Virus record (IMG/VR): IMGVR_UViG_3300045988_078321
DNA length: 41,081 nt
Source of the DNA: a virus
Direction: 5' to 3' (one strand)
The notes below the pieces were generated by a model that saw nothing but the letters and a program-made list of their open reading frames with translations, ran no database searches and had not been told where the DNA came from. The translations under genes and the position numbers were made by a program. This document shows, one piece after another, positions 4,586 to 33,068 of the stretch; position 1 is the first letter of the stretch, and each line of letters starts with the position of its first letter.

Positions 4586-4671
4586 GCGACGATAATGTGA
4601 TTATTGATAAATTACACTATCGGAAAAAGAAAATGCAATAGAAGCGAAATTCATAAAAAAATAACGAGACA

Positions 4672-12743: not shown

Positions 12744-14174
12744 ATGAGCAATTACAACAACCTAAAAACAGCTATTCAGCAAGTAATAAAGAAGAATGGT
12801 AAACAGGAAATTACCGGGAACATTCTGAAAAGTGCGTTACTTGCAATGGTAAATAGTATTGGCGAAAATTACCAATACGTAGGAATAGCAACACCAGAGT
12901 TAGACCCGGGTAGCCCAGACCAGAATGTGATGTACATAACATCGAAAAATGGTGTGTACACTAATTTCAATAATTTGCAAGTAGAAAATGAAATTGCCGT
13001 TTTGACATTCAACGGAGCATGGGCAAAACAGACAATTTATAGCCTCGAAACGATTAACGATGTGCAGAGCCGAGCATCACAGGTGTATGAAAACCTTGCA
13101 GCTATCGAGGCAAGCGGAGAGACTAACCCTAACAAAATCTACATTGATGGGGAGACTCTAATACCTTATGTTTATAAAGATGGAAAGTTTATGCCTTTCA
13201 AAGGAGAAGTGAATAATGAATATTACAATGAAAATATTTATATACCTTTCTACAAATGCTCTTTGCCGACACAACATAAAAAATCAGAATTTGCAATTCC
13301 TATAAATGGAGATTTAGATGATTTATTTGTTTTTTCATATATAAATTTTGAAAGTTCTCAAATAAGACGTGTAAAAAATGGGAAAGTAATATGGGAGATA
13401 TTACAAAATATTTATATAGGTATGTTGTATAAACATACTGTAAACAATGACGTAGTTTTTTATGGTAATTATGCTTTTGTAAGAGGTAGAATTACAGGAC
13501 TTGCAAAAATAGATTTAAGCGATGGAATAGTCGAATTTAACAAAGAAGTAATAACAGAATATGAAAATATAAGTCTATATAAAGATTATATAATTGCAAC
13601 GGGGGAAAATAAAATTGTAATTATTGACCCAAACTCATTCTCTGTTTATAAACAAATAGATATTGAAGGTGGCAAGACTAATTCTATAAATAGTTATGCT
13701 GACAGGGTTTTAATTTCTTGCAGTAAAAATTTATACATTATAAAAGATATTGATTCTGACCCAATTGTAATATCAGGAAGCAATATTATAAGTGCATACT
13801 ACATAAAACATTTAATAAATTCAAATGTTGATTCTTATCTTTTATACGATAGTGGTATAACAAGACTTTTAACAGAAGATAGTAGTATAGACTTAACATC
13901 TAATGAAATTTTTAATTCACTTGGATTTTCTCCTCAATTTGTTATAAATAATTCTGCTTATGCAGGTAATGCAATTATATATTGTGTTTGCCATAACGGA
14001 TATTTAACAATAGTAGGATATGATAATACAATAAAATTACAATCATTAGTAAGTGATTTTATTACTTATAGCAGAGTCGAAGAAGTTATGAAATACTTCG
14101 GCAATGACTATTATATAAGGAGAGTAGGAGACATTTTTTATAAAGTAAAAATTATTGGTTATGCCGAAAATTAA
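12744..14174 (+). CDS. Tail fibre / receptor-binding protein 2, with an AT-rich, repeat-like (possibly beta-propeller) C-terminal domain
   Basis: 476 aa. It shares the N-terminal module with the upstream gene. From about 13200 onward the DNA drops to roughly 18-32% GC in hand-counted lines. Confidence 0.6.
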   Translation: MSNYNNLKTAIQQVIKKNGKQEITGNILKSALLAMVNSIGENYQYVGIATPELDPGSPDQNVMYITSKNGVYTNFNNLQVENEIAVLTFNGAWAKQTIYSLETINDVQSRASQVYENLAAIEASGETNPNKIYIDGETLIPYVYKDGKFMPFKGEVNNEYYNENIYIPFYKCSLPTQHKKSEFAIPINGDLDDLFVFSYINFESSQIRRVKNGKVIWEILQNIYIGMLYKHTVNNDVVFYGNYAFVRGRITGLAKIDLSDGIVEFNKEVITEYENISLYKDYIIATGENKIVIIDPNSFSVYKQIDIEGGKTNSINSYADRVLISCSKNLYIIKDIDSDPIVISGSNIISAYYIKHLINSNVDSYLLYDSGITRLLTEDSSIDLTSNEIFNSLGFSPQFVINNSAYAGNAIIYCVCHNGYLTIVGYDNTIKLQSLVSDFITYSRVEEVMKYFGNDYYIRRVGDIFYKVKIIGYAEN

Positions 14175-14820
14175 AATAGACATTGAAAATAAAGTTACCA
14201 ATATCTATAATGGTGACGAAGAAAAACAAGGTTGGATAGAAATAGATTCTATTCCCGAACCCGAACAAAAAGAAGGATATATACCTGTCACTTATTATAG
14301 AGATGGGAAAATAGTCTATGAGTATGAGGCTATACCCGAAATGCCGGAAGAAGAAATTCCAGAGGTAGATGAAATCGAGATGATGAAAGCATCGACAGAA
14401 GAAAAGGTAAAAACCATGTTCTTCGCCTCTGGAATACCTTCTGTAATCAACAGATTTGGCCTTTCAAATAAAGAGGCTATTTCGGTTAAAGAGATGTTTC
14501 CATGGTGGAATAAAGACCTCGGAGAGGTGGTAAAAGGTGAACGATACAATTATGGCGAAAATCTCTGGGAGGTAGTTCAATCACATACTACACAAGAAAA
14601 TTGGGCACCGAGCCTTCAAACGTCGAGCCTTTGGAAAGTGGTTAATGTTGAAAACGAAGGAACAGAAGAAGATGCAATACCGTACACGCCACCGATGGAA
14701 ATTTTCGCCGGAAAGTATTACACGCAGAACGGCGTAAAGTACAAATGTACACGTGACAGTGGAATACCGTTGAGCCACGACCTTAGTGCATTGGTCGGTC
14801 TATATGTTGAGATTGTATAA
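14161..14820 (+). CDS. CBM5/12-like carbohydrate-binding protein (fibre accessory or distal fibre protein)
   Basis: ATG at 14161; the listed 14155 start is TTG. The segment VKGERYNYGENLWEVVQSHTTQENWAPSLQTSSLW matches the chitin-binding type 3 pattern (G-x-x-Y-x-G-x-x-W/Y...H-T-x-x-x-x-W-x-P...LW). Confidence 0.6.
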   Translation: MPKIKIDIENKVTNIYNGDEEKQGWIEIDSIPEPEQKEGYIPVTYYRDGKIVYEYEAIPEMPEEEIPEVDEIEMMKASTEEKVKTMFFASGIPSVINRFGLSNKEAISVKEMFPWWNKDLGEVVKGERYNYGENLWEVVQSHTTQENWAPSLQTSSLWKVVNVENEGTEEDAIPYTPPMEIFAGKYYTQNGVKYKCTRDSGIPLSHDLSALVGLYVEIV

Positions 14821-14844: not shown

Positions 14845-14925
14845 ACAGTTATCGTAAAGACTACCATTAAGACAGTTATCGTAAAGACTACCATTAAGAC
14901 AGTTATCGTAAAGACTACCATCGAG
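14845..14925. repeat. 3 x 27-bp tandem direct repeat (ACAGTTATCGTAAAGACTACCATTAAG)
   Basis: Copies at 14845..14871 and 14872..14898 are identical. The copy at 14899..14925 differs only near its 3' end (CATCGAG). Intergenic, 17 nt upstream of the holin-candidate ATG. Confidence 0.95.
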
Positions 14926-14942
14926 ACAAAAGTAATAAAAAA

Positions 14943-15473
14943 ATGAAACTAAAAGAAGAAATGGAAAGAATTTTTAATTTCGAGCAGATGCGGATTATAG
15001 CGGTGTCTATAATTAGCCCAGTAATGGCGATTACAACCCCGATAAAAGGGTTTATTTGGGCGCTTGTAGTGATGTTTGCCTTCAATATCTTTGCGGGCAT
15101 GAGAGCCGACGGTGTAGCAATAAAGCACTGTAAAAATTTTTCATTCAAGAAATTCAAAAATGCGCTTATTGAGCTGCTTTTGTATCTCCTGATTGTTCAG
15201 GTGGTTTACATTGTAATGCGGAGTTGTGGAGATGAGGATGCCGCGTTGATTGTAATTAAGACGTTGACGTATGTGTTTATGTATGTGTACTTACAAAATG
15301 CCTTTCGCAATCTTATACTCGCATACCCCCAAAAAATTGCATTCCGGGTAGTATACCACATAATTCGATTTGAATTTACACGGGCTTTACCTTCGCATAT
15401 TCAACCTATAATTCAGCGATTAGAAGAAGAGTTCGGTAAAGATGAGAAACAGAAAAAAAAACAAAAAAAATGA
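14943..15473 (+). CDS. Holin candidate (multi-pass membrane protein)
   Basis: 176 aa with about 4 hydrophobic helices and a Lys-rich C-terminal tail (KDEKQKKKQKK). ATGA overlap with the endolysin gene. Confidence 0.55.
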   Translation: MKLKEEMERIFNFEQMRIIAVSIISPVMAITTPIKGFIWALVVMFAFNIFAGMRADGVAIKHCKNFSFKKFKNALIELLLYLLIVQVVYIVMRSCGDEDAALIVIKTLTYVFMYVYLQNAFRNLILAYPQKIAFRVVYHIIRFEFTRALPSHIQPIIQRLEEEFGKDEKQKKKQKK

Positions 15474-16076: not shown

Positions 16077-16688
16077 ATGAAAAAATATATCATAATATCA
16101 ATTATTGGATTGATTGTTGCCTCGTTGGTGACGATAGCAATTCAGCAAAACAGAATTTCAAACCTTAAAAAAGAGCGCGACAAATATCGCGAAAATACTG
16201 AAATTCTTTTGGGCCAAGTAGAGCAGTATGCGACAAAAGACAGTTTGCACGCCGCAACCGTTGGGGTTCTTCGATTGAAAATCGAGGAATACGAAAAATA
16301 TAGGTCTGCCGATGCCCAACTAATCGAAACTCTGAAAACTAAAAACAGAGAATTGCAGCAAGTAACCACGACGCAATTGCAGACGATTGATTCAATTCGG
16401 GCAACAGTGCAAGATAGTGTGTATATATATAACAACGACACCGTTGAATTGCAATGTATAGACGTACATAACCAGTGGTTCGATTTGCAAGGCTGTGTCT
16501 CTAATGGTGAATTTAATGGAGAATATGAAAGTAGAGAAAGCCTATTGATTGCAATGACTGTACAATACAAAAGATTCCTCGGATTTCTATGGAAGACAAA
16601 CAAGATAAAAAACAGGAAAGTTGACATAATTTCAAGAAACCCAAACACGAAAATTGTAGGATTTGAGGTTGTTGAAATCGAAAAATAA
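16077..16688 (+). CDS. Spanin-like lysis accessory protein (N-terminal TM plus coiled coil)
   Basis: 203 aa. N-terminal anchor IIISIIGLIVASLVTIAI, then a heptad-like segment rich in K, E and Q. It is the last gene of the lysis cassette and is followed by a terminator. Confidence 0.45.
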   Translation: MKKYIIISIIGLIVASLVTIAIQQNRISNLKKERDKYRENTEILLGQVEQYATKDSLHAATVGVLRLKIEEYEKYRSADAQLIETLKTKNRELQQVTTTQLQTIDSIRATVQDSVYIYNNDTVELQCIDVHNQWFDLQGCVSNGEFNGEYESRESLLIAMTVQYKRFLGFLWKTNKIKNRKVDIISRNPNTKIVGFEVVEIEK

Positions 16689-16697: not shown

Positions 16698-16730
16698 CAA
16701 GGAAATACGATTCTTGCTATCGACGAAGGA

Positions 16731-16759
16731 GGGTTAGCCGAACGGTTAGCCCTTTTTTT
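16731..16759 (+). terminator. Rho-independent terminator of the lysis operon
   Basis: GGGTTAGCC-gaac-GGTTAGCCC forms a 9-bp stem with G-U pairs, followed by TTTTTTT. Confidence 0.8.
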
Positions 16760-16933
16760 GATATAATGAATTTTAGGCCGTTTTTAGGCCCGTATTTGCA
16801 TTATCGCATTTTTATGGCATAATATACCATCGAGATAATAAAACGCCTTAAAAATGAAAATTCTCCAAAAATAACTCTTGAAGGGCACAAAAGAATTTTT
16901 TTTATCGAAAATCACAAAAAACAAAGAGAAAAT

Positions 16934-17000
16934 TTTGGTAATTAAAAAAGCAGTTGTATATTTGCATCGTAATCAAACAACCGACCGGGCGGGTTCCCGG
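16934..17000 (+). promoter_or_regulatory. Cassette 1: Bacteroidota-type promoter plus CCGGG leader hairpin
   Basis: TTTG (16934..16937), N19, TATATTTG (16957..16964). Hairpin CCGGG-cgggtt-CCCGG at 16985..17000, with 19 nt to the ATG at 17020. Confidence 0.8.
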
Positions 17001-17019
17001 GAAATAAAAAATAGAAAAT

Positions 17020-17331
17020 ATGAAAGCAAACGAAATCGTATGGAAGAGCGTATGTAATCGTTATTTCAGTGCAAACGCGAAAAGTGTTCAATACAAACAA
17101 TCGATGAAATGGGGTAGTGTATTCCCAACCACAAAGGCACAAGCAAAATATTTCATTGAAGAACGTGTGCAAATGGACGTCTTAAACAACAAAGACGTTG
17201 AGCGTGTAGAATATTTGCTGAACAAACACGGTTACACAGGAGAGTATAAATTCACAAAATCGCGTGAGTGGGTTCGTCTCGAAAATTACGAAGACCTGTA
17301 CAGCGCATTGAAAAAAGAATATAACATCTAA
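17020..17331 (+). CDS. Early small protein, unknown function
   Basis: 103-aa ORF starting 19 nt after the cassette-1 hairpin. Confidence 0.7.
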   Translation: MKANEIVWKSVCNRYFSANAKSVQYKQSMKWGSVFPTTKAQAKYFIEERVQMDVLNNKDVERVEYLLNKHGYTGEYKFTKSREWVRLENYEDLYSALKKEYNI

Positions 17332-17343
17332 ACTTACAAAACA

Positions 17344-17547
17344 ATGACACTAAATTTTAACGATTGGCTTATCAAAGTACAAAAATGCGAAGGAGATAAC
17401 AATGTTTTTGTCGCCGAATTTTACATACCAAAAACAGACGGCTCCAAATGTTTCCAGCAGTTCTATAAGTACATAGGGAACAGCAAGACAACACACAGTT
17501 TTATACTTGAAAGAGTGAAAAGAATAATTGAAACATTTTACCAATAA
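17344..17547 (+). CDS. Early small protein, unknown function
   Basis: 67-aa ORF with an ATG start, tightly spaced after the upstream gene and followed by a hairpin. Confidence 0.55.
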   Translation: MTLNFNDWLIKVQKCEGDNNVFVAEFYIPKTDGSKCFQQFYKYIGNSKTTHSFILERVKRIIETFYQ

Positions 17548-17552
17548 TCAAC

Positions 17553-17579
17553 GCCGGGGATATTCCCCGGCTCTTTATT
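17553..17579 (+). terminator. Hairpin GCCGGGGA-tat-TCCCCGGC plus a T-rich tail (weak terminator or attenuator)
   Basis: 8-bp perfect GC-rich stem followed by TCTTTATTA. The next ATG is at 17580. Confidence 0.45.
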
Positions 17580-18050
17580 ATGAGCGAAATAATAGCAGAC
17601 ATTAAAAGCATTTTATCTTTACCATTGGTCCCCAGGCAAAGAAAATACTATGAGGATTTAATCGCAGTTGCGAAGCCTGTAAAAATCTCCCGTGCGCACG
17701 ATGTTATCGATTCGTACATGCTTGATTTCATAAAGCACGTTGTAAAACCAGAGAAAAAAAGATGTTACAGGAATGCGCATCTTTTGTGCGAGGCATTTCC
17801 GGACATGGTAACATACTGTGAAGGAAGGGCGAATGTTCCAATTCCTATTGATCACGCATTTAACAAGGTCGGCGAGTATTACATCGATGTAACATTTGAG
17901 TTTGCATTGAGAGAAGACCCCAGCCAATACGATTACGCTATTTTTGGCGAATATACAGCAAATGAAATTTCAAAAATAGTGAGAAAAACGGGGTCTTATG
18001 GCGAATATTACAACTATCTGTGGAAAGACAAAAACCCCCTCGCGATTTAG
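17580..18050 (+). CDS. Small protein with a transglutaminase/papain-like Cys-His-Asp arrangement (tentative)
   Basis: 156 aa. RCYRNAHLLCEAF...YCEG...IDHAFNKVGEYYIDVT resembles the C...(V/Y)xG...HAW...D core of the transglutaminase-like fold. Confidence 0.35.
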   Translation: MSEIIADIKSILSLPLVPRQRKYYEDLIAVAKPVKISRAHDVIDSYMLDFIKHVVKPEKKRCYRNAHLLCEAFPDMVTYCEGRANVPIPIDHAFNKVGEYYIDVTFEFALREDPSQYDYAIFGEYTANEISKIVRKTGSYGEYYNYLWKDKNPLAI

Positions 18051-18176
18051 TCGGGAGGGGGCGGAAGGAGGTACGCAGTAACCGAGAGCGAAATGTGGTA
18101 ATGCGACACCACAAAAATAGTAAAAATTATTTGTTCACGAAAAAAACAGATAAAAATAAAAAAACAAAGAGAAAAT

Positions 18177-18243
18177 TTTGGTAATAAAAGAAATGGTTGT
18201 ATATTTGCATCATAATCAAATAACCGACCGGGCGGGTTCTCGG
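18177..18243 (+). promoter_or_regulatory. Cassette 2: promoter plus leader hairpin (stem has a G-U pair)
   Basis: TTTG (18177..18180), N19, TATATTTG (18200..18207). Hairpin CCGGG-cgggtt-CTCGG at 18228..18243, with 18 nt to the ATG at 18262. Confidence 0.8.
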
Positions 18244-18261
18244 AACAAAAATAATTCAAAT

Positions 18262-18642
18262 ATGAAAAAGTACATTTTAGTTAAGACACAAAAAGGTTCA
18301 AAGTATCTTTATCAAGTAAAAGACGAACAGGGTAATGTAGTGGCAAAAAGAACATCTACGCGCGATTACGTTGCTTGCACATCTAACGGTGAATTTTATT
18401 TCGGACGTGTAGACCTAATAGGTAAAGGAGACCACGGGAGACAACTGAATCAAATATACAAGTTGATAAACGACCCCAGAGGATTATATGAAGATATTGC
18501 GAGAATATTCGTACCATCGTATCGCTCTGTATGGAAAAAAGAAAATCCGTTTGATGAATGGTATAACTCGAAAGATATGGAGTACTGGAAAGACAGGAAA
18601 ACAAAACTCGAAAATATCGCTTATTTGCAGTCTGGGGAATAA
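18262..18642 (+). CDS. Early small protein, unknown function
   Basis: 126 aa from the ATG at 18262 (MKKYILVK...). The listed start at 18178 is a TTG that would run through the promoter and hairpin. Confidence 0.7.
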   Translation: MKKYILVKTQKGSKYLYQVKDEQGNVVAKRTSTRDYVACTSNGEFYFGRVDLIGKGDHGRQLNQIYKLINDPRGLYEDIARIFVPSYRSVWKKENPFDEWYNSKDMEYWKDRKTKLENIAYLQSGE

Positions 18643-18653
18643 CAAAAAACAAT

Positions 18654-18661
18654 TATATTTG
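18654..18661 (+). promoter_or_regulatory. Isolated -7-type box TATATTTG, 41 nt upstream of a terminator
   Basis: AATTATATTTG is shared with 16687..16697. It lies directly after a stop codon. Confidence 0.3.
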
Positions 18662-18701
18662 TACTGTATTTTTGTAGTTTTATCACATAGGTAAATAAGG
18701 A

Positions 18702-18730
18702 GGGTTGGCCGTAAGGTTAGCCCTTTTTTT
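18702..18730 (+). terminator. Rho-independent terminator
   Basis: GGGTTGGCC-gtaa-GGTTAGCCC followed by TTTTTTT. Confidence 0.8.
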
Positions 18731-18906
18731 GATATAATGAATTTTAGGCCGTTTTTAGGCCCGTATTTGCGTTCTTATATTTTTCTGGCATAACATACCA
18801 TTGAGATGATAAAACGCCTTAAAAACGAAAATTCGCCAAAAATAACTCTTAAAGGGCACAAAAGAAATTTTTTTATCGAAAATCACAAAAAAAATAAAGA
18901 GAAAAT

Positions 18907-18977
18907 TTTGGTAATTAAAAAAACGATTGTATATTTGCATCGTCAACATAAGACAAACAGACCGGGCTGATACCCGG
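18907..18977 (+). promoter_or_regulatory. Cassette 3: promoter plus leader hairpin (different loop)
   Basis: TTTG (18907..18910), N19, TATATTTG (18930..18937). Hairpin CCGGG-ctgata-CCCGG at 18962..18977, with 19 nt to the ATG at 18997. Confidence 0.8.
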
Positions 18978-18996
18978 GAAATAAAAAACAAAAGTT

Positions 18997-19245
18997 ATGA
19001 GCGCAGAAAAATATTACGAAGGTCTCGAATACACAACAACCGAAATTAACCGTAATTTCAAGATTAAGGTAAACGGAATGTTTGAGGGTAAAAAAATCAA
19101 TAAATTAGTCGGTGTTTATGGTCTTATTAATCTTGTAGGTATAGAGATGGCGAACAAACTTTTTCGCCGTGCATTTCGTAGTACAGACGATGCCCAGCAT
19201 TGTAAATTGCGCAGAGGATTGAAAATTTCGTTCTATTGCTATTAA
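18997..19245 (+). CDS. Early small protein, unknown function
   Basis: 82-aa ORF behind cassette 3. Confidence 0.65.
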   Translation: MSAEKYYEGLEYTTTEINRNFKIKVNGMFEGKKINKLVGVYGLINLVGIEMANKLFRRAFRSTDDAQHCKLRRGLKISFYCY

Positions 19246-19259
19246 AAATAGATTTTATT

Positions 19260-19320
19260 TTTGGTAATTAAAAAAGTAATTGTATATTTGCGTCATAAAA
19301 CCGACCGGGCGGGTTCCCGG
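19260..19320 (+). promoter_or_regulatory. Cassette 4: promoter plus leader hairpin
   Basis: TTTG (19260..19263), N19, TATATTTG (19283..19290). Hairpin CCGGG-cgggtt-CCCGG at 19305..19320, with 17 nt to the ATG at 19338. Confidence 0.8.
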
Positions 19321-19337
19321 AATAAAACTATAACAAA

Positions 19338-19664
19338 ATGGAAACACAAGATACATCTTTGATTAAGCCTGCAAGTTTAATGGCTATTCGCAGGTTTGTT
19401 GAAAATAAAATCATAACGGATTGCGAAGAGTACATTGAGCGTGATAAAATATTGCACGATGAGTTTTCAGAACCTGTTGAATGCGATGATGAAACCCTAT
19501 ATGTGGACGTAGAATGGGAGGGCTACAACGGAAGACGATGGACAAAAGGCAATTATTTTACACCGGAAGAATCAGATGGTGAAATTGTATTGATGTACAC
19601 AGTGAAAATATATGATGAGGACGAAATACAATGCGGAGAATTTAATGACAAAATATTCATCTAA
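19338..19664 (+). CDS. Highly acidic early small protein (anti-defence / DNA-mimic candidate)
   Basis: 108 aa. By my count about 28 D/E versus 11 K/R. It sits behind cassette 4 and directly upstream of an HTH gene. Confidence 0.7.
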   Translation: METQDTSLIKPASLMAIRRFVENKIITDCEEYIERDKILHDEFSEPVECDDETLYVDVEWEGYNGRRWTKGNYFTPEESDGEIVLMYTVKIYDEDEIQCGEFNDKIFI

Positions 19665-21164: not shown

Positions 21165-21874
21165 AGGGAAGAATCGAAAGGCCCGAAGCACACAAGCCTC
21201 GGTTAGTTTTGCCGCGAGTCGGTAAAATAAGAATAGGCGTGAAGAACGCGAAAGGATACCCGCAAAGTCTCGACTATTTCATCGCAACGGGTAAGTATGC
21301 AGGATTGTTTTTACAGGCGTATGGTGATAAGCCGCAAATAATACAAATTGTCTTTCCGGACGATGACCCAGAAAAAGTATGTTGCGAGCGGTATGAGTAT
21401 CGAGACGATGAAGGGAATCTGGTAGCATATGGAGACGGTTGTAATTTCGATGTATGGAACCCCAAGACCAAAAGATACGAGTCGTTCAGCGCGAAAGATT
21501 ACCCTCAAATAATGCAGTCGATACAAAATCGATACCCTACGAAATTATCGCAAAAGACCGGCGATGGCTGGAGGGTTAGATTAACCCTAAATTTCATTAT
21601 ACCACTCGTTAGGGGTGTTGCGGGTATATGGACGTTTGAGACAAATGGAAACGCATCAACAATACCGCAAATTCGTGAGACATTCGATTGCATGTTGCTC
21701 GAAAGAGGATTCTGCAAAGGCATAATTTTCGACTTGTCTGTTCAATTTGCCGTATCCCAGAAACCCGGTGTAAATTCAAGATACCCCGTTGTATCGCTTA
21801 TTCCAAACGAAAGCGCGGACAATGTTCTGAAAGTAAAGAAGGCTTATGAGCCAATAATGGAGGTTAAAAAATGA
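21161..21874 (+). CDS. phiC31 gp3-like (RDF-like family) protein, recombination/replication module (tentative)
   Basis: 237 aa from the ATG at 21161, in an ATGA overlap. The N-terminal LPRVGKIRIGVKNAKGYPQSLDYF resembles the vG-x-IRlG...P-x-x-LD-x-F signature I recall for that family. Confidence 0.4.
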   Translation: MKGRIERPEAHKPRLVLPRVGKIRIGVKNAKGYPQSLDYFIATGKYAGLFLQAYGDKPQIIQIVFPDDDPEKVCCERYEYRDDEGNLVAYGDGCNFDVWNPKTKRYESFSAKDYPQIMQSIQNRYPTKLSQKTGDGWRVRLTLNFIIPLVRGVAGIWTFETNGNASTIPQIRETFDCMLLERGFCKGIIFDLSVQFAVSQKPGVNSRYPVVSLIPNESADNVLKVKKAYEPIMEVKK

Positions 21875-22665
21875 CTGTGCGTGATAGTAATTTTGTTACC
21901 ATTTTGGCCCCGATGGTAACAATCCTAAAATTAAAAGGGAATGAACTTTTGGTGTTTGCTCTTATTCATGGATTCAGCCAAGACGGCGAGAGTACTTTTA
22001 AGGGCTCTTTGAAATATTTGAATGAGTGGACAGGTTTGGACAAAACAACGATTCTTAGAATCTTGAAAAACCTGTGCGAAAAAGAGTATATAACAAAACA
22101 TGAAGGAAGCAAAAACGGGGTAAAAGTCTGTGAATATTCGTCTAATTATTGGGAGGTAATGGGGTGGTTGCAAAATACCACCACCCCCGGTTGCAAAATG
22201 CAACTACCCCGGTTGCAAAATACCACCACCCCCCTGGTTGCAAAATGCAACCCTATATATATATATAATAATATAGATAATAATATAGATAATAATATAG
22301 ATAATCCGATGGTTGAAACATCGTCTATTTTTAGTGCTGAAATGGTAGAAGAAAAAAAATTGAGGGGGACAACGGAGCCGCGAAAGTGTTTGTTCGTAAA
22401 TAGTCGTTTCTCCAAACTTGAGGATTTTTTGAAATGCTTCGATAAACCAGAGTATGAAGAAATAGACATGGTGTATTACTACCATGCGGTAGCAGATTGG
22501 AGCGCAAGTAAAGGAAGAATGCAGAAAGATTGGATAGCACAAACAAGGAATTTTGTTCGTTCCGATAGAGATAAAGGGAAATTACATCTCAAGCAGGAAT
22601 ATCAACAGAAGAAACAAAAAATAGATGTAGCAAGCGCTATTGAATACCTCGAAAATGAATTGTAA
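21871..22665 (+). CDS. Replication initiator / replisome organiser (winged-helix N-terminus)
   Basis: LLVFALIHGFSQDG...FKGSLKYLNEWTGLDKTTILRILKNLCEKEYI is wHTH-like. The gene carries iterons and an AT-rich tract internally. Confidence 0.6.
   Translation: MTVRDSNFVTILAPMVTILKLKGNELLVFALIHGFSQDGESTFKGSLKYLNEWTGLDKTTILRILKNLCEKEYITKHEGSKNGVKVCEYSSNYWEVMGWLQNTTTPGCKMQLPRLQNTTTPLVAKCNPIYIYNNIDNNIDNNIDNPMVETSSIFSAEMVEEKKLRGTTEPRKCLFVNSRFSKLEDFLKCFDKPEYEEIDMVYYYHAVADWSASKGRMQKDWIAQTRNFVRSDRDKGKLHLKQEYQQKKQKIDVASAIEYLENEL
22166..22253. repeat. Origin iterons: 4 x GGTTGCAAAAT(A/G)C, arranged as 2 x ~45 bp
   Basis: Iteron units start at 22166, 22189, 22211 and 22236. Confidence 0.9.
22254..22305. repeat. 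AT-rich tract with a (TA)n run and 3.25 x 12-bp repeat AATAATATAGAT (DNA-unwinding-element candidate)
   Basis: 12-mer copies at 22267, 22279 and 22291. Translated as NNIDNNIDNNID. Confidence 0.9.
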
Positions 22666-22667: not shown

Positions 22668-23597
22668 ATGATTCCAGATAAAAAAACAAATATCAATTCT
22701 TTGTCTTTAACGACCAAGAACAATCGAACAAAAGCGATAGAGATTCGACGAAGAATGGCGGAGGTTCCCGAACTTATGGCTGGATTGTCTAAAATAGAGA
22801 CATATATATTTTCCGCATCAACTAAATTGCAGATAAATGAACTAACAGATGAGATTCTCGTCAAAAAGTCGGCCCAACTGTTCAGATTCATTGCGATAGA
22901 TGTTGGATACACAATACCTTCACAAAATGATTGGAGCTATATATGCACCAGATTGTTAGATGTTTTGAAAAGGTATTTTTCAAATTTGACTTTGTCTGAA
23001 ATTAAGTTGGCTTTTGAACTGGCATTGACTGGTAGTCTCGATGACTATTTGCCAAGAGATGGCCGAGGTGATCCAGATAAGAAACATTACCAACAGTTCA
23101 ATGTTGACTACTTTTGCAAAATTCTGAACGCATATATCAAAAAAAGAGGTGAAGTAATCGAGAAGGTATATAAATCGTTACCGGCCCCGGAAATACAAGT
23201 TGAAGAAAAAGAAAAATACCACCAACTTTCATTCAATAGGTTGTTGAATGTTTTTTTGCGTTACAAATACAAGGGCACATTTAGGCTTGGTCTTGTTGAT
23301 GGAATGTTTTTTTACAATATACTTAAAAAGGCATCTATAATCGATGAAATAAAAGAACAAGATGAAGACAGAAGAAAGGCTCTATCTATTTACTTGCAAA
23401 GGGTTGCAAAAGGGTTTACAAATAGGTATGAAGCATACAGGGTTCAGAAAAAAAGGGTATATTCCCCAGAACTCGATTTTATTGCCTTTGAAATTGCGAG
23501 AGACAAGGAAATTCAAAGAGCTTTTTATTTTATTGCCAGCAATGAGATTCAAATGACAGATTTATTAACGTCTTATTTTAGAGGGAATGAGTATTGA
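22668..23597 (+). CDS. Replication-module protein, unknown function
   Basis: 309-aa ORF immediately after the initiator. No NTPase motif was seen. Confidence 0.65.
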   Translation: MIPDKKTNINSLSLTTKNNRTKAIEIRRRMAEVPELMAGLSKIETYIFSASTKLQINELTDEILVKKSAQLFRFIAIDVGYTIPSQNDWSYICTRLLDVLKRYFSNLTLSEIKLAFELALTGSLDDYLPRDGRGDPDKKHYQQFNVDYFCKILNAYIKKRGEVIEKVYKSLPAPEIQVEEKEKYHQLSFNRLLNVFLRYKYKGTFRLGLVDGMFFYNILKKASIIDEIKEQDEDRRKALSIYLQRVAKGFTNRYEAYRVQKKRVYSPELDFIAFEIARDKEIQRAFYFIASNEIQMTDLLTSYFRGNEY

Positions 23598-24815: not shown

Positions 24816-26127
24816 AGCGTTTGCAGGATATGGAAGCCAGTCTATGGGGCTCGAAAGGCTGAAACAAGACTATCCGCAGTTCGATTATGAGGTTGTAGGA
24901 ATTAGCGAGATTGACAAATACGCTGTAAAAGCGTACAACGCCACGCATGAGCCAACAGCCAATTATGGAGATATATGCCTCATAGATTGGGATAGCGTAC
25001 CCGATTTTGACTTGTTCACCTATTCTTTTCCATGCCAGGACATATCGAGTGCAGGCAGGCAAAGAGGACTTGAAGCCGGTAGTGGTACGAGAAGCAGCCT
25101 TTTATGGGAATGCAGAAAAGCAATAGAAACAAAACGTCCGAAATATCTGCTCATGGAGAACGTAAAGGCACTTGTAAACAAAAAGTTTATCAATCATTTT
25201 AACGATTGGTTGCTTTATTTGGATAGCCTGGGATATAGCAATTTTTGGCAAGTCCTTAATGCCAAAGACTACGGTGTTCCTCAAAACAGAGAGCGGGTTT
25301 TTGTCGTGTCTATACTTGGGAATAACGAGCAGTATAAATTCCCAAACACGTTTGAGCTTATAAAACGATTAAGTGACGTTTTGGAAGAGTGTGTAGATGA
25401 AAAATATTATTTGTCCGAAAAGTTTTATAATTGTATTTTATCGCATACAAACAGAAAGATTCAAGAAGGATGCGGGTTTAAGCCTCAATTTATTACAAGT
25501 AATGAAGCGCCTGGCACAATTACAACAAAATACGGGCAAAGGTCAACAGACCCATACATTATCCAAAACGGGAGAGGATATGTAGAAACAAAAGAATTTG
25601 AGTTATGCCCAACTATTACCAGCCACGGATTCGAACGAAATAATTTTGCTTTTGTATCATACACAAGAGATAAAAAAGGTAATGTAGTTGACAGGCATTT
25701 GAAAGATGTATCAAACACAGTGCACACATCGACAGGTAGCGGAGGTAATACCGATTGTTTTGTATTTGAAACAAAAATTAAACAGTTATGCAATATATTG
25801 AAAGAGGGTAATTATTCTAATCCGAAGAGAGGCAGAGTTTATTGCGTAGATGGTATTAGTCCTACGCTTGACACTATGGCAGGAGGTGGACGCGAGCAAA
25901 AAATATTATCTAAGTACAATCGTATCCGCAAACTTACACATCGTGAATGTTTCCGCTTAATGGGAGTATCTGAAACTGATATAGATAAAATACAATCGGC
26001 CGGTATAAGCAACAGACAGCAGTACAAGATGGCAGGAAATAGTATTGTTGTAGATGTATTGTATTTTATATTTAAGAATCTTTTTTTTGAAAGGCCAAAA
26101 ATATTTCAATTGAAATTATTTAAATAA
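24799..26127 (+). CDS. dcm: DNA (cytosine-5)-methyltransferase with an oversized variable region
   Basis: Motifs: FAGYGS (I), FPCQDIS (IV), ENV (VI), QNRERVF (VIII), RECFRLMG (IX), GNSIVV (X). 442 aa from the ATG at 24799. Confidence 0.92.
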   Translation: MIRVFEAFAGYGSQSMGLERLKQDYPQFDYEVVGISEIDKYAVKAYNATHEPTANYGDICLIDWDSVPDFDLFTYSFPCQDISSAGRQRGLEAGSGTRSSLLWECRKAIETKRPKYLLMENVKALVNKKFINHFNDWLLYLDSLGYSNFWQVLNAKDYGVPQNRERVFVVSILGNNEQYKFPNTFELIKRLSDVLEECVDEKYYLSEKFYNCILSHTNRKIQEGCGFKPQFITSNEAPGTITTKYGQRSTDPYIIQNGRGYVETKEFELCPTITSHGFERNNFAFVSYTRDKKGNVVDRHLKDVSNTVHTSTGSGGNTDCFVFETKIKQLCNILKEGNYSNPKRGRVYCVDGISPTLDTMAGGGREQKILSKYNRIRKLTHRECFRLMGVSETDIDKIQSAGISNRQQYKMAGNSIVVDVLYFIFKNLFFERPKIFQLKLFK

Positions 26128-26144
26128 AAAACAAAGAATAATCT

Positions 26145-26214
26145 TTTGTAATTAAAATAATAGTCTTATATTTGCATCGTCAATATAAGACAAACCGACC
26201 GGGCGGGTTCCCGG
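26145..26214 (+). promoter_or_regulatory. Cassette 5: promoter plus leader hairpin
   Basis: TTTG (26145..26148), N18, TATATTTG (26167..26174). Hairpin CCGGG-cgggtt-CCCGG at 26199..26214, with 18 nt to the ATG at 26233. Confidence 0.8.
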
Positions 26215-28556: not shown

Positions 28557-28988
28557 ATGAAAAACAGAGAAATCACAGCAACGGGGACAATTAACCACGA
28601 CGGCCGTTTGGTTATGTATATGGGAGAAATAAACGAGTTTTTTGCCGGTTGGAAAGGACAGAGGGTTATAGCTCGTTTTACTATTGCATCGCCCGGGACA
28701 TCTGAAGCATTGCGTGGCTATTACTTTAATTGTGTTGTCCCAACATTTCGGCGCGCACTTTGGGATACCGGCGATAGAATGACGGAAGAGCAGGCAGAAA
28801 GAAAAATGCGAGAATATTCTCCAATAATGCACGAAGAGGTTGCCGACGTAAATACTGGGAAATATACACATATTCTTCGAAGTGTAGCCGAATTGTCAAA
28901 TGCCGAGCTAATTGAGCACATAGAAACTATAAAGCAGATTGCTGCCGAAGAGTTTAATGTATATATCGAAGACCCAATGATTTTATAG
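28557..28988 (+). CDS. Hypothetical protein
   Basis: 143-aa ORF. Confidence 0.65.
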   Translation: MKNREITATGTINHDGRLVMYMGEINEFFAGWKGQRVIARFTIASPGTSEALRGYYFNCVVPTFRRALWDTGDRMTEEQAERKMREYSPIMHEEVADVNTGKYTHILRSVAELSNAELIEHIETIKQIAAEEFNVYIEDPMIL

Positions 28989-28989
28989 T

Positions 28990-29178: not shown

Positions 29179-29182
29179 CCGC

Positions 29183-29200
29183 GCCGGGCGGGTTCCCGGC
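29183..29200 (+). promoter_or_regulatory. Leader hairpin copy 6 (GCCGGG-cgggtt-CCCGGC), with no recognisable promoter
   Basis: Same stem and loop as cassettes 1, 4 and 5, extended by one G-C pair. 18 nt lie between the core CCCGG arm (ends 29199) and the ATG at 29218. Confidence 0.75.
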
Positions 29201-32421: not shown

Positions 32422-32972
32422 AAAAAGAAATTATAGGCAACAACGAAAAAGAGTTGTTAGAACTTATACAAAAAGTGACTGGTGATGAGAATATGGTTGT
32501 TTCAATTGGTAAAAATGACATTGTTGTAACGGCATTTTCATCAAGTCCGGAGAGTTTGATTTCAGCAGTAAAAAACTGTATTGGGAATCGGTTGGTAAAG
32601 TTTTATGAAAAATACAGTTATTGCACATTTGTTGTATCCACAGAGGAAGGCCAAAAAATTTCACAGAAAGAAATTTTTCAGATGTTCAGTACGCTTTTTG
32701 GTGAAGATGTGCATAAGAGAAACAACAAACTCAAAGAAGAGGTTTTCGAATATTTTGAGGCATCGAAAAATTATTGGCTAAATCCTTCGCAAGTTACCTA
32801 TGATGCAATGATTGATGAACTTAGCGATACAATGGCCGTTATGCTTCATATCTGTTCAATCCTCAATAAAACCCCGGAGCAACTTTTGTTGATGGCGTAT
32901 GACAAGGTAAAAGGACGATTGAATAATCCAAATTACAAACGAAGTCACCCATATAAAGAGAAAATATTTTGA
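32418..32972 (+). CDS. MazG-like nucleotide pyrophosphohydrolase domain protein (tentative)
   Basis: LKEEVFEYFEA...IDELSDTMAVMLHICSIL resembles the EExxE...E/DxxD helical pair of MazG. Confidence 0.4.
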   Translation: MKKEIIGNNEKELLELIQKVTGDENMVVSIGKNDIVVTAFSSSPESLISAVKNCIGNRLVKFYEKYSYCTFVVSTEEGQKISQKEIFQMFSTLFGEDVHKRNNKLKEEVFEYFEASKNYWLNPSQVTYDAMIDELSDTMAVMLHICSILNKTPEQLLLMAYDKVKGRLNNPNYKRSHPYKEKIF

Positions 32973-32998
32973 AATAAAAAGAATAATTTTTATTTTTG
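32968..32998 (+). promoter_or_regulatory. Bacteroidota-type promoter upstream of the ParB-MTase / terminase block
   Basis: TTTG (32968..32971), N19, TATTTTTG (32991..32998). It overlaps the upstream stop codon. Confidence 0.65.
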
Positions 32999-33068
32999 TT
33001 CTGATAAAACTAAAAAGCCATACAGGAAATCAATATTTACGAAATAGACGAAAATAACGCGTGTATTT

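What the first reader, a model, noticed from the sequence alone, without database searches (positions are those of the whole stretch)
16930..19337. Dispersed regulatory cassette: host-type promoter plus conserved CCGGG leader hairpin at a fixed distance from start codons
Four copies occur within 2.4 kb, and two more lie at 26145..26214 and 29183..29200. Each copy has the same order of elements:
- AAACAAAGAGAAAA-TTTG;
- N19 (N18 in the 26-kb copy);
- TATATTTG;
- about 20-25 nt;
- CCGGG-6 nt loop-CCCGG;
- a 17-19 nt A-rich spacer, then the ATG.

The promoter part matches the published Bacteroides consensus (-33 TTTG, -7 TAnnTTTG).

The hairpin appears to be selected as RNA on the + strand. In copy 3 the loop changes completely (ctgata versus cgggtt) while the stem is kept. 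In copy 2 one stem position becomes a G-U pair (CTCGG), which pairs in + strand RNA but would be a C-A mismatch on the other strand.

The distance from the hairpin to the start codon is 19, 18, 19, 17, 18 and 18 nt. That invariance points to a role in translation initiation or mRNA 5'-end protection in a host clade that lacks Shine-Dalgarno pairing, or to a binding site for a phage regulator.

The arrangement recalls the promoter-early stem-loop (PeSL) mobile cassettes of T4-type phages. I know of no equivalent described for Bacteroidota phages.
Basis: partly seen in the sequence, partly recalled or inferred. Interest (0 to 1): 0.8.

Follow-up and report, generated by a model that had tools for sequence, protein, structure and literature searches.

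The report
Leader RNA pseudoknot before phage start codons
A gut Bacteroidales phage carries six copies of a small GC-rich RNA hairpin, probably a miniature pseudoknot, parked 17-19 bases upstream of start codons; five sit behind host-type promoters, the motif is conserved with compensatory changes across a whole phage family, it matches no described RNA family, and it also marks the points where these phages swap gene modules.

Summary
The window, a circularly assembled phage genome of about 41 kb, has five Bacteroides-type promoters (TTTG-N18/19-TAnnTTTG). Each is followed by a CCGGG-N6-CCCGG hairpin. A sixth hairpin has no promoter.

The element is conserved in PDS1-like Bacteroides, Parabacteroides and Alistipes siphophages and in an Elizabethkingia phage. 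The stem is kept through compensatory changes and through G-U intermediates that pair only in + strand RNA.

Two points change the picture.
- About 43% of family copies have no promoter. They lie between cistrons, 5-8 nt after a stop codon and 15-22 nt before the next ATG. The hairpin therefore belongs with the start codon, not with the promoter.
- Three bases of the 5' flank covary with the first three loop bases in at least seven combinations. This implies a compact H-type pseudoknot.

My best reading is a structured 5' boundary for an A-rich translation start region that lacks a Shine-Dalgarno sequence. It would raise or protect expression of the downstream gene. The function is inferred, not shown.

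At the DNA level the cassettes coincide with module indels and mosaic junctions, as PeSLs do, but the element fails the PeSL architecture. No Rfam family or paper describing it was found.

The parts
16916..16964 (+). Promoter 1: A-rich upstream block, -33 TTTG (16934-16937), -7 TATATTTG (16957-16964)
   Evidence: Pattern match, repeat families D1/D3/D5/D6, and the same layout in relatives. The start site is not mapped. The 5th base after the -7 box is a purine in all five window copies and in the common family leaders.
16981..17000 (+). Element 1: flank CCG (16981-83), linker A, stem CCGGG (16985-89), loop CGGGTT, stem CCCGG (16996-17000). Followed by a 19-nt A-rich spacer and ATG 17020 (103-aa ORF).
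   Evidence: 45.8 bits; hairpin present in the MFE fold.
18159..18207 (+). Promoter 2 (-33 at 18177-18180, -7 at 18200-18207)
18224..18243 (+). Element 2: CCG-A-CCGGG-CGGGTT-CTCGG, with one G-U pair. Followed by an 18-nt spacer and ATG 18262 (126-aa ORF).
   Evidence: (40.9 bits). The same G-U variant and its fully compensated form CCGAG/CTCGG occur in relatives.
18889..18937 (+). Promoter 3 (-33 at 18907-18910, -7 at 18930-18937)
18958..18977 (+). Element 3: CAG-A-CCGGG-CTGATA-CCCGG. Flank CAG and loop CUG have changed together relative to CCG/CGG. Followed by a 19-nt spacer and ATG 18997 (82-aa ORF, phrog_32997).
   Evidence: 33.5 bits; pair 8:21 A-U.
19247..19290 (+). Promoter 4 (-33 at 19260-19263, -7 at 19283-19290)
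   Evidence: The promoter, the element and most of the spacer (window about 19252-19340, ending at the ATG) form a roughly 89-nt indel relative to the near-identical contig L129.
19301..19320 (+). Element 4: CCG-A-CCGGG-CGGGTT-CCCGG. Followed by a 17-nt spacer and ATG 19338 (108-aa ORF).
   Evidence: (46.2 bits).
26126..26174 (+). Promoter 5 (-33 at 26145-26148, N18, -7 at 26167-26174)
26195..26214 (+). Element 5: CCG-A-CCGGG-CGGGTT-CCCGG. Followed by an 18-nt spacer and ATG 26233 (50-aa ORF). A mosaic junction with L129 lies at its 3' edge.
   Evidence: (43.7 bits).
29179..29200 (+). Element 6, without a promoter: stop TAA 29176-78, flank CCG, linker C, 6-bp stem GCCGGG/CCCGGC, loop CGGGTT. 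Followed by a spacer and ATG 29218 (204-aa ORF).
   Evidence: (24.9 bits, not in the seed).
16726..16932 (+). 207-nt direct repeat upstream of cassette 1. The second copy is at 18697-18903, upstream of cassette 3.
   Evidence: family D2, 90% identity. Function unknown.
32968..32998 (+). Promoter-like site of the same type, with the A-rich upstream block ATAAAGAGAAAA, but no element. A 136-nt leader runs to ATG 33135 (ParB-N/DNA methylase).
   Evidence: (D3).

Best explanation
The finding contains two separable modules.

**Module 1 is a host-type promoter.** It is a Bacteroides primary-sigma promoter, with -33 TTTG(GTAAT), -7 TAnnTTTG and an A-rich upstream block. It drives early and middle operons from the host RNA polymerase.

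**Module 2 is a cis-acting RNA element.** It is transcribed on the + strand and sits immediately 5' of the translation start region.
- It has a 5-7 bp all-G/C stem with a 6-7 nt loop.
- The first three loop bases pair with three bases of the 5' flank across a 1-nt linker.
- This gives a compact H-type pseudoknot of about 20 nt.
- A 15-22 nt unstructured spacer follows. It is rich in A (0.8-0.9 at -11 to -13, 0.7 at -3), which is the Bacteroidota substitute for a Shine-Dalgarno site. The ATG comes next.

**Proposed mechanism (inferred, not shown).** The knot is a stable 5' boundary that sits just outside two ribosome footprints. One is the ribosome terminating on the upstream cistron, whose stop codon lies 5-8 nt before the stem. 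The other is the ribosome initiating on the downstream ATG. The knot is therefore never melted by translation.
- It would keep the A-rich start region single-stranded.
- It would shield that region and the downstream cistron from 5'-end-dependent endonucleolytic decay. The hosts have RNase E/G-family enzymes and RNase Y but no 5'-3' exonuclease.
- It might also dock the 30S subunit.
- The net effect would be higher output of the gene behind it.

**DNA-level by-product (shown by comparison).** The repeated promoter-plus-knot cassettes serve as homology linkers at which gene modules are gained, lost and exchanged.

**Sub-confidences.** RNA stem real and selected: 0.9. Pseudoknot: 0.7. Tied to the start codon rather than the promoter: 0.85. 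Positive boundary or stabiliser role: 0.45.
For: **Occurrence.**
- The counts in the window are far above chance.
- The element is conserved in the cultured phages BKO1-3, PDS1, AS73P1, PD491P1, C1_85S2P and TCUEAP2, and in IMG/VR contigs found through the promoter alone or through a protein alone.

**Stem.**
- In 121 unique contexts the stem cells are 578 Watson-Crick, 14 G-U, 3 A-C and 10 other.
- On the model-fitted alignment A3, 97.8% of cells are paired and 24 cells are changed on both sides. The covariation score is 0.204 against 0.063 in shuffles (0 of 500 reach it) and at most 0.051 when partners are slid.

**Second helix.**
- On A3, which was not fitted to this helix, 93.4% of cells pair. 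Pair 7:22 is C-G in 42 rows, A-U in 40 and other in 14.
- On the structure-blind MAFFT alignment A1, 87.8% pair.
- In my own scan, 104 of 164 elements are fully paired in register. Shifted registers give at most 20, and shuffles give a mean of 40 and a maximum of 56.
- The distinct complementary types are ACG/CGU, CCG/CGG, CAG/CUG, CCC/GGG, CCU/AGG, GCG/CGC and CGG/CCG.
- All six window copies fit, including the double change in copy 3.

**Independence from the promoter and link to the ATG**.
- 111 of 260 hits have no promoter.
- The upstream stop lies 5-8 nt before the stem in 33 of 44 unique promoter-less copies that have an identifiable upstream ORF.
- The ATG lies 15-22 nt after the stem in 104 of 121 unique copies.

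**Spacer.** The composition matches the published Bacteroidota start signal (PMC7366714). The modal host 5' UTR is 23 nt (PMC7366714).

**Host RNases.** Bacteroidota lack RNase J and rely on RNase E/G-family enzymes and RNase Y, with cuts preferring A (PMC10234816).

**Several sequence variants coexist in one genome**. This argues for recognition of shape or stability rather than of one sequence.

**Recombination role.**
- Relative to L129 there is a 730-bp module indel bounded by cassettes 2 and 3, an indel of about 89 nt that holds cassette 4, and a junction at element 5.
- Intergenic gaps with an element hold a similarity breakpoint in 80% of cases against 57% without one (odds ratio 3.1).
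Against: - No transcript, structure-probing or expression data exist. Start sites, RNA folding and any effect on expression are all untested.
- MFE z-scores of the six leaders are unremarkable, from -2.2 to +0.5. The case rests on covariation, not thermodynamics.
- The second helix is only 3 bp, and 14 of 96 rows break its outer pair. Much of the A-U/C-G split could reflect two lineages whose flank and loop are inherited together. At that outer pair, A-C mismatches are as common as G-U.
- L129 carries CCG flanks with CUG loops, which is a mismatch.
- Sequences are related, so the shuffle controls overstate significance.
- A class with purine-rich loops sits only 7 nt from its ATG. There the structure would lie inside the ribosome footprint and would more likely repress than help.
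- The breakpoint enrichment over other intergenic gaps is modest, and element-bearing gaps are longer.
Confidence: 0.5

Rival explanations
1. The element is an operator for a trans-acting RNA-binding protein, phage-encoded or host. Binding at the knot, possibly spreading over the A-rich spacer, would shut off or time the translation of early and middle genes. This is how T4 gp32 nucleates at its leader pseudoknot, and how RegA-type translational repressors act.
For: - The element sits upstream of many early and middle genes and none of the structural genes (with the annotations).
- The linker is conserved as A in 116 of 164 elements, and the loop tail is U-rich in 116 of 164.
- The layout of pseudoknot, unstructured A/U-rich stretch and start codon parallels T4 gene 32 (PMC3014915).
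- The class 7 nt from the ATG would block initiation if stabilised.
- The phage encodes an SSB (31138-31548) and several small basic proteins of unknown function.
Against: - Stems and loops of different sequence coexist in one genome. PDS1 has CCGGG, CGGGG and a 7-bp stem, and loops CGUUUU, CGGGUU and GGAGUA. This is hard to reconcile with one sequence-specific protein.
- No RNA-binding domain was found in the ten proteins scanned, nine of them encoded just downstream of the cassettes.
- The spacing just outside the ribosome footprint is not required for an operator.
Confidence: 0.25
2. The element acts on transcription. It would be a nut/boxB-like or put-like RNA in the nascent transcript that makes host RNA polymerase resistant to terminators further down these one-directional operons.
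For: - A small GC hairpin lies shortly after early promoters, as with lambda nutL (my own knowledge).
- U-tract terminator-like hairpins exist inside or between the operons, for example at 17553-17571.
- All genes lie on one strand.
Against: - The tight coupling to start codons and to upstream stop codons, including 111 promoter-less intercistronic copies, is not expected for an antitermination site.
- The loop is 6-7 nt rather than a GNRA-like pentaloop, and no boxA-like conserved block was seen beyond the 3-nt flank.
- No N-like protein was identified, but I did not search for one specifically. The only protein scans were Pfam and PHROGs on ten ORFs and a reading of translated ORFs.
Confidence: 0.1
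3. There is no RNA function. The palindrome would be a DNA site, such as an operator for a dimeric regulator or a recombination target. Alternatively it is simply repeated DNA kept similar by gene conversion, and its position before genes is incidental.
For: - The cassettes coincide with indels and mosaic junctions.
- Copies within a genome are similar, which fits conversion.
- A palindrome keeps its symmetry when a dimeric protein's specificity changes.
Against: - Single-base stem variants are strongly biased to those that stay paired in + strand RNA. G-U outnumbers A-C 14 to 3, and two of the three A-C cases are at the stem base.
- Different stem sequences coexist in one genome.
- Flank-loop complementarity is asymmetric and has no meaning for a palindromic DNA site.
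- The position relative to stop and start codons is constrained to a few nucleotides.
Confidence: 0.05
4. The hairpin is an intrinsic terminator or attenuator, either for upstream + strand transcription, as the stem-loop of a PeSL is, or for antisense transcription on the - strand.
For: The consensus scan flags three copies as terminator-like on the - strand, with tails UCGGUUGUUU, UCGGUUUUAU and UCUGUUUGUC.
Against: - On the + strand the stem is followed by an A-rich tract, not U.
- Promoter-linked copies lie downstream of their own promoter and would abort their own transcripts.
- On the - strand the tail starts with UCGG, and the G-U variants become A-C mismatches.
- A separate U-tract terminator-like hairpin is present where termination is plausible, at 17553-17571. 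By eye, 18706-18734 looks like another, but the scan does not list it.
Confidence: 0.03

Closest known systems
PeSL (promoter-early stem-loop) cassettes of T4-type phages (Arbiol et al. 2010, PMC2839356; Comeau et al. 2014, PMC4122927)
   Same: - Both are repeated intergenic cassettes of about 100 bp with a strong host-type early promoter, an AT-rich upstream block and a G/C-run stem-loop.
- Both sit in front of small genes of unknown function.
- In both, close relatives differ by indels and replacements whose ends fall inside the cassettes.
   Different: - In PeSLs the stem-loop lies between, over or next to the promoter hexamers and works as a terminator. The cassette ends in a Shine-Dalgarno site.
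- Here the structure lies in the transcribed leader at a set distance from the ATG and has no U tract.
- It shows RNA covariation, including a second helix.
- It often occurs without any promoter.
- It is followed by an A-rich start region with no Shine-Dalgarno sequence.
- Mini-circles were not tested.
Autoregulatory leader pseudoknot of T4/T2 gene 32 mRNA (reviewed in PMC3014915)
   Same: Both are compact H-type pseudoknots at the 5' side of a phage mRNA leader, followed by an unstructured A/U-rich stretch that runs into the start region. As I recall, the T2 knot also has a single-nucleotide first loop (my own knowledge; not in the passages I read).
   Different: - Gene 32 has one knot, 67 nt upstream of one gene, bound by that gene's own product.
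- Here the knot is smaller (3 + 5-7 bp) and lies 15-22 nt from the ATG.
- It is present at 4-6 genes per genome, none of them the SSB gene.
- No binding protein is known.
Bacteroides phage promoter-leader parts used for expression (phage B124-14 promoter/RBS; Whitaker et al. 2017, cited in PMC11554821 and PMC10746243)
   Same: Both are host-type -33/-7 promoters repeated in a Bacteroides siphophage, followed by short A-rich leaders that give strong expression without a Shine-Dalgarno sequence.
   Different: B124-14 and B40-8 leaders have no such hairpin. The covariance model finds nothing in either genome. I could not read the original paper.
Intercistronic or 5' stabiliser stem-loops of bacterial and phage mRNAs (E. 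coli ompA 5' hairpin, REP elements, T7 RNase III sites; my own knowledge)
   Same: Both are stable G/C structures in leaders or between cistrons that are not melted by ribosomes and could set the boundaries of mRNA decay.
   Different: - The known examples lie at the very 5' end, protect the upstream cistron's 3' end, or are RNase III substrates.
- This element lies 5-15 nt from the predicted 5' end and is too short for RNase III.
- It has a conserved distance to the downstream ATG and a pseudoknot signature.

Membership tests
Bacteroides sigma-ABfr (primary sigma) promoter | -7 motif TAnnTTTG | tested here: met
   TATATTTG is present in all five cassette promoters. The consensus is as cited in PMC7366714.
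Bacteroides sigma-ABfr (primary sigma) promoter | -33 TTTG at the right spacing, and more matches than chance | tested here: met
   TTTG-N19 in four copies and N18 in one. There are 9 matches against 2.2 expected, and 0 of 100 shuffles reach 9.
Bacteroides sigma-ABfr (primary sigma) promoter | Transcription starts a few bases downstream of the -7 box | not testable with these tools
   No transcript data. The 5th base after the box is a purine in all five window leaders and in the common family leaders. This is only suggestive.
PeSL cassette (T4-type phages) | Strong host-type early promoter with an AT-rich upstream region, in intergenic space before small ORFans | tested here: met
   Nine of the ten proteins scanned have no annotated function.
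PeSL cassette (T4-type phages) | Stem-loop placed in or around the promoter, upstream of the start site, acting as a terminator of upstream transcription | tested here: not met
   The stem lies 14-24 nt downstream of the -7 box, is followed by an A-rich tract, and occurs without a promoter in 111 of 260 family copies. PeSL definition from PMC2839356.
PeSL cassette (T4-type phages) | Indels and replacements between close relatives bounded by the cassettes | tested here: met
   Window against L129: a 730-bp module between cassettes 2 and 3, an indel of about 89 nt holding cassette 4, and a junction at element 5. The family-wide enrichment is modest.
PeSL cassette (T4-type phages) | Mini-circles formed by recombination between cassettes | not testable with these tools
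   This needs inverse PCR on infected cells.
H-type RNA pseudoknot | Two helices in crossing order, each supported by covariation | tested here: met
   Stem 2. Flank-loop helix: with seven complementary combinations and register and shuffle controls. Caveats: the helix is 3 bp, the sequences are related, and about 12-15% of rows are exceptions.
H-type RNA pseudoknot | Loop lengths that can span the grooves | tested here: inconclusive
   The layout is linker 1 nt, no base between stem 2 and the flank partner, and loop tail 3-4 nt. It is compatible with known small knots according to my own knowledge of pseudoknot geometry. No 3D modelling was done.
T4 gene 32-type autoregulatory leader | Located on the mRNA of the SSB gene and bound by its product | tested here: not met
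   The SSB-like gene 31138-31548 has a promoter-like site at 31064 but no element. Binding is not testable.
Lambda-type nut site (boxA + boxB) | 5-bp stem with a purine-rich pentaloop, a conserved boxA upstream, and an N protein with an arginine-rich motif | tested here: not met
   The loop is 6-7 nt (CGUUUU or CGGGUU). There is no conserved block beyond the 3-nt flank. No N-like protein was recognised, but I made no dedicated search for one.
Intrinsic terminator | G/C hairpin followed directly by a U tract | tested here: not met
   The + strand tail is A-rich. The - strand tails begin with UCGG, and the G-U variants would be A-C there.
Any Rfam 15 family | Match at the gathering score, or a plausible weaker match over the element | tested here: not met
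   There were 0 matches at gathering score over the whole window. At E up to 5 over 16700-19400, none overlaps an element.

The most novel reading that the evidence does not exclude
The element would be a previously undescribed class of miniature H-type pseudoknot serving as a portable 'start-site module' for mRNAs in a phylum that does not use Shine-Dalgarno pairing. Placed one ribosome footprint upstream of the ATG, it would actively recruit or position the Bacteroidota 30S subunit, for example through S1 or the platform proteins that sequester the anti-SD. Alternatively it would block scanning by RNase E/G. Either way it would give phage messages an expression advantage. The same 20-100 bp unit would double as the homology linker through which this phage family shuffles early genes.
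Probability: 0.3. Interest if true: 0.8.

Novelty: new variant of a known kind. Interest (0 to 1): 0.66.

Why it matters
How ribosomes choose start sites in Bacteroidota, which ignore Shine-Dalgarno pairing, is still only partly understood. So far only base-composition signals are known. A structured RNA conserved at a set distance from many phage start codons gives a concrete, mutable handle on that question. It also bears on mRNA decay in a phylum without a 5'-3' exonuclease.

There is practical value too. Phage-derived promoter-leader parts are already the strongest expression tools for gut Bacteroides. A small portable element that boosts or insulates expression would be useful for engineering these bacteria.

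For phage evolution, it extends the idea of regulatory cassettes as recombination linkers, known from T4-type phages, to an abundant group of human-gut siphophages.

Tried and rejected
- **Rfam.** No family matched at gathering score or at permissive thresholds. No tRNA or tmRNA genes were found.
- **Thermodynamic significance.** RNAfold predicts the hairpin in all six leaders, but MFE z-scores against dinucleotide shuffles are not significant. I do not use energy as evidence.
- **Same thing as the published B124-14 'phage promoter'?** No. B124-14 and B40-8 have the promoter type but no hairpin. The original paper could not be read.
- **Host-genome origin.** A scan of 185,579 species genomes found only chance hits in high-GC taxa, plus gut MAG contigs of 40-46 kb that look like mis-binned phage genomes.
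- **Wider phage range.** The element is absent from Croceibacter phage P2559S, which shares proteins with this family.
- **Alignment register.** The first pair count, on the MAFFT alignment A1, was degraded because 7-nt-loop variants are off register. I replaced it with a model-based alignment.
- **Genome-wide hairpin count.** An unrestricted count of '4 G/C pairs plus one free pair' was swamped by chance sites in coding DNA. I restricted it to promoter leaders and then to model hits.
- **Alternative hairpin.** An extended, mutually exclusive hairpin AAAACG/CGUUUU fits only one variant. Just the 3 bp next to the stem are conserved, which favours a pseudoknot.
- **Minus-strand terminator.** Rejected.
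- **Protein functions.** Nine proteins encoded just downstream of the cassettes gave no informative Pfam or PHROG function. I made no structure predictions.

Full report
**What the window is.** The first 55 bases are repeated exactly at the end. The window is therefore a circularly assembled genome of about 41,026 bp. All long ORFs lie on the + strand.

The early region is about 70% identical in DNA to cultured siphophages of Bacteroides (BKO1-3, C1_85S2P), Parabacteroides (PDS1, PD491P1), Alistipes (AS73P1) and Elizabethkingia (TCUEAP2). The gene order is the same: structural genes, lysis genes, small early genes, then replication and recombination genes. One IMG/VR contig (L068 = L129) is nearly identical to the window.

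**Checking the observation.** The Bacteroides promoter pattern TTTG-N17-21-TAnnTTTG occurs 9 times against 2.2 expected. Five of these, at 16934, 18177, 18907, 19260 and 26145, sit in repeats of 64-86% identity over about 100 nt.

CCGGG-N6-CCCGG with at most one mismatch occurs 8 times against 0.34 expected. Six are the reported hairpins.

A covariance model of the hairpin with its flanks (R1) finds exactly six sites in the window. All are on the + strand, at 24.9-46.2 bits, with the next hit at 12.2 bits. The sixth copy was not in the seed.

Three details in the finding need correction.
- The 29184 copy has no promoter. It begins 5 nt after the stop codon of the upstream ORF.
- The distance from the -7 box to the stem is 14-24 nt.
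- Copies 1 and 3 share a further 207-nt repeat upstream.

**The cassette is a family trait.** I collected relatives in three ways, none of which used the hairpin:
- the cultured phages;
- IMG/VR contigs that match only the promoter pattern;
- IMG/VR contigs that encode a homologue of the protein at window 22668-23597.

Nearly every promoter of this type in the family is followed by a G/C hairpin. B124-14 and B40-8, the source of the published Bacteroides 'phage promoter', have the promoter type but no hairpin. Croceibacter phage P2559S lacks it too.

Bacterial genomes hold no copies apart from chance hits in high-GC taxa and phage-sized gut MAG contigs. Rfam has no matching family.

**The stem is selected as RNA on the + strand.** Model R1 finds 262 hits at E ≤ 1 in 1.6 Mb of family DNA, all on the coding strand. 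The model is itself strand-asymmetric, so the strand bias is weak evidence.

I analysed 260 of these hits, which reduce to 121 unique contexts. Their stem cells are 578 Watson-Crick, 14 G-U, 3 A-C and 10 other.

The stem occurs as CCGGG/CCCGG, CGGGG/CCCCG, CCCGG/CCGGG and CCGAG/CUCGG. The one-step G-U forms CCGGG/CUCGG (window copy 2), CCGGG/CCUGG and CUGGG/CCCGG are also present. The wider set adds CUGGG/CCCAG, GCAGG/CCUGC and CGCAC/GUGCG.

On the model-based alignment A3:
- 97.8% of cells pair;
- 24 cells in 3 of 5 pairs are changed on both sides;
- the covariation score is 0.204, against 0.063 in shuffles (0 of 500 reach it) and at most 0.051 with slid partners.

That alignment leans towards the structure, and the sequences are related, so these figures are not probabilities. 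The excess of G-U over A-C is the cleanest argument. A DNA palindrome or a - strand RNA would not show it.

**The hairpin belongs with the start codon, not with the promoter.** Of the 260 hits analysed, 111 have no promoter within 60 nt. The same holds for 51 of the 121 unique contexts. These copies lie between cistrons.

The stop codon of the upstream ORF ends 5-8 nt before the stem in 33 of the 44 unique promoter-less copies with an identifiable upstream ORF. The next ATG follows at 15-22 nt, with modes at 19 and 21, in 104 of 121 unique copies. Window copy 6 is of this kind.

The spacer is A-rich with position-specific peaks: A is 0.80-0.91 at -11 to -13 and 0.70 at -3. This is the signature reported for efficiently translated Bacteroidota mRNAs, which lack Shine-Dalgarno sites (PMC7366714).

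The modal 5' UTR of B. thetaiotaomicron mRNAs is 23 nt (PMC7366714). The spacer therefore looks like a standard host leader with a structure at its 5' side.

The elements occur only in the early and middle regions, never among the structural genes.

**Probably a pseudoknot.** The three bases at -4 to -2 before the stem are complementary to the first three loop bases. A single linker base separates them from the stem, and it is A in 116 of 164 elements.

On A3, which was not fitted to this helix, 93.4% of cells pair. The outer pair is C-G in 42 rows, A-U in 40 and unpaired in 14. The inner pairs also show C-G, G-C and A-U swaps. On the structure-blind MAFFT alignment of promoter-selected leaders, 87.8% pair.

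I then ran a scan that defines elements only by stem, A-rich spacer and ORF start.
- 104 of 164 elements are fully paired in this register.
- Shifted registers give at most 20.
- Shuffled partners give a mean of 40 and a maximum of 56.
- Another 15 elements are mis-scored only because an A-U pair extends the stem.

The distinct complementary combinations are ACG/CGU, CCG/CGG, CAG/CUG, CCC/GGG, CCU/AGG, GCG/CGC and CGG/CCG, plus G-U versions.

In the window, five copies have CCG/CGG. Its flank changed together with its loop.

Only these 3 bp are conserved, which matters for choosing between models. The longer alternative hairpin AAAACG/CGUUUU fits one variant only. A 3-bp helix closing a 6-nt loop would be worthless on its own but makes sense stacked on the G/C stem.

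The strand order is flank, 1-nt linker, stem 5' arm, loop bases 1-3, 3-4 nt tail, stem 3' arm. That is a classical H-type pseudoknot. The linker stays at 1 nt when the stem grows to 6 or 7 bp.

Caveats apply.
- The helix is short.
- 12-15% of rows break it, including the L129 copies with CCG and CUG.
- Flank and loop lie 10 nt apart and can be inherited as a block.
- At the outer pair, A-C is as frequent as G-U.

I put the pseudoknot at about 0.7.

**How it most likely works.** The anatomy and the selection on RNA pairing are shown. The function is inferred. Three observations point to a structural role in cis.
- The structure lies as close to the upstream stop and to the downstream ATG as ribosome footprints allow.
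- It is made only of G-C pairs in a genome that is AT-rich around it.
- It tolerates different sequences within one genome.

Gut Bacteroidota have no 5'-3' exonuclease. They degrade mRNA through RNase E/G-family enzymes and RNase Y, with cuts that prefer A (PMC10234816). An A-rich start region is therefore an exposed target.

A knot between the 5' end, or an upstream cleavage site, and the start region could block access from the 5' side. It could also keep the start region unpaired.

It might instead help dock the 30S subunit. From my own knowledge, pseudoknots are high-affinity ligands of ribosomal protein S1. I could not verify this in the library here.

The main rival is a protein operator of the T4 gene 32 or RegA kind (PMC3014915). 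It is favoured by the restriction to early and middle genes, and by a class with purine-rich loops (GGAGUA, GGGAAUA, AGGGAUA, GGGGAUA) that sits only 7 nt from its ATG. Antitermination, termination and a pure DNA role fit the data poorly; see the rival explanations.

**Role in genome mosaicism.** Comparison with the near-identical contig L129 shows three differences at the cassettes.
- The 730 bp between the hairpins of cassettes 2 and 3 are absent from L129, which has one chimeric cassette instead. The segment holds a 126-aa gene, what looks by eye like a terminator, the 207-nt repeat and promoter 3.
- Promoter 4, its element and most of its spacer form an indel of about 89 nt, flanked by AAAAT(A/G)G. 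In L129 the two genes are separated only by TAAAAATG.
- Identity ends at the 3' edge of element 5. There L129 continues with a different gene, whose spacer matches that of AS73P1.

Other family members show the same downstream gene behind different promoters, with the switch at the hairpin.

Across the family, intergenic gaps with an element hold an end of a high-identity match in 80% of cases, against 57% for other gaps (odds ratio 3.1). The data are not independent and element gaps are longer, so this is modest support.

This behaviour matches PeSL cassettes of T4-type phages (PMC2839356). The architecture does not match, because the PeSL stem-loop is a terminator in or next to the promoter.

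**Novelty.** The promoter type is known, and so is the idea of regulatory cassettes as recombination linkers. I found no description of the start-codon-linked RNA element or its pseudoknot signature. It is absent from Rfam, the phiPDS1 paper and full-text searches. I file it as a new variant of a known kind, a cis-acting leader RNA structure within a phage regulatory cassette.

Noticed in passing
window 1-55 and 41027-41081: An exact 55-nt terminal duplication. The window is a circularly assembled complete genome of about 41,026 bp, so the duplication is an assembly overlap rather than a biological repeat.
   Followed up: partly
window 22166-22251 and 22259-22305: Three copies of a 22-25 nt repeat (GGTTGCAAAATRCNACYACCCC) are followed by three 12-nt AT-rich repeats (ATATAGATAATA). 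Both lie inside ORF 21871-22665, which corresponds by position to the 'replication initiator A' gene of PDS1. The arrangement looks like iterons plus an AT-rich stretch, that is, a replication origin inside the initiator gene, as in lambda O.
   Followed up: no
window 14845-14928: Three tandem copies of a 27-nt unit (ACAGTTATCGTAAAGACTACCATTAAG) lie in the gap between ORFs 14155-14820 and 14943-15473, just before the lysis genes. L129 has them too. Function unknown.
   Followed up: no
window 16726-16932 and 18697-18903: A 207-nt direct repeat (90% identity) lies upstream of cassettes 1 and 3, beyond the promoter. It could hold further regulatory sites or a small RNA. A weak sub-threshold Rfam hit to the Bacteroidetes sRNA family FopS lies at 18666-18733 (21.8 bits against 56 needed, E = 3), which is probably chance.
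   Followed up: partly
window 17553-17571: A strong hairpin GCCGGGG-ATA-TCCCCGGC followed by TCTTTATT lies only 8 nt before ATG 17580, inside the first early operon. It is a candidate terminator or attenuator within the operon, and it differs in kind from the six elements because it has a U-rich tail.
   Followed up: partly
window 32953-33134: A promoter of the cassette type, with ATAAAGAGAAAA upstream, has no element. Instead it has a 136-nt leader containing a near-perfect 26-nt palindrome (TGAAATATGATAGAATTATCATTTCA). It lies ahead of a ParB-N/DNA methylase gene and the packaging genes, and may be a differently regulated (late?) promoter.
   Followed up: no
L002 (PDS1) 4546-4616; L001 (BKO1-3) near 11601 on the - strand; L003 13962-14032; not in the window: A second class of the element has purine-rich, Shine-Dalgarno-like loops (GGAGUA, GGGAAUA, AGGGAUA, GGGGAUA) and sits only 7 nt from the ATG of a conserved gene (MRIKESD.../MKIKESE...). 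Deposited annotations pick other start codons, one of them reading through the promoter. It could be a regulated or repressed start site.
   Followed up: partly
L003 (AS73P1) 28930-29030; L114: Some leaders carry two structures in tandem, GGGGG-ACAAU-CCCCC followed by the standard element, or two elements about 40 nt apart.
   Followed up: no
L213, L231, L232, L254 (MAG labelled Propionibacterium sp., contig 45,644 bp); L210, L218, L219, L226, L248: Gut MAG contigs of 40-46 kb assigned to Propionibacterium, Clostridia, Faecousia, Enterousia and others carry the element, four times on one contig. They are very likely mis-binned phage genomes of this family, so host assignments taken from those bins would be wrong.
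   Followed up: no
L001 gp22 and L002 gp_4, with their window counterparts (82-aa ORF 18997-19245; 203-aa ORF 16077-16688): Deposited names such as 'ribosomal large subunit pseudouridine synthase B', 'RNase E' and 'RNA polymerase sigma factor' for small phage proteins in this family look unreliable. For the one window counterpart I scanned, the 82-aa ORF, the only match was a PHROG of unknown function and Pfam gave nothing. I did not scan ORF 16077-16688.
   Followed up: partly
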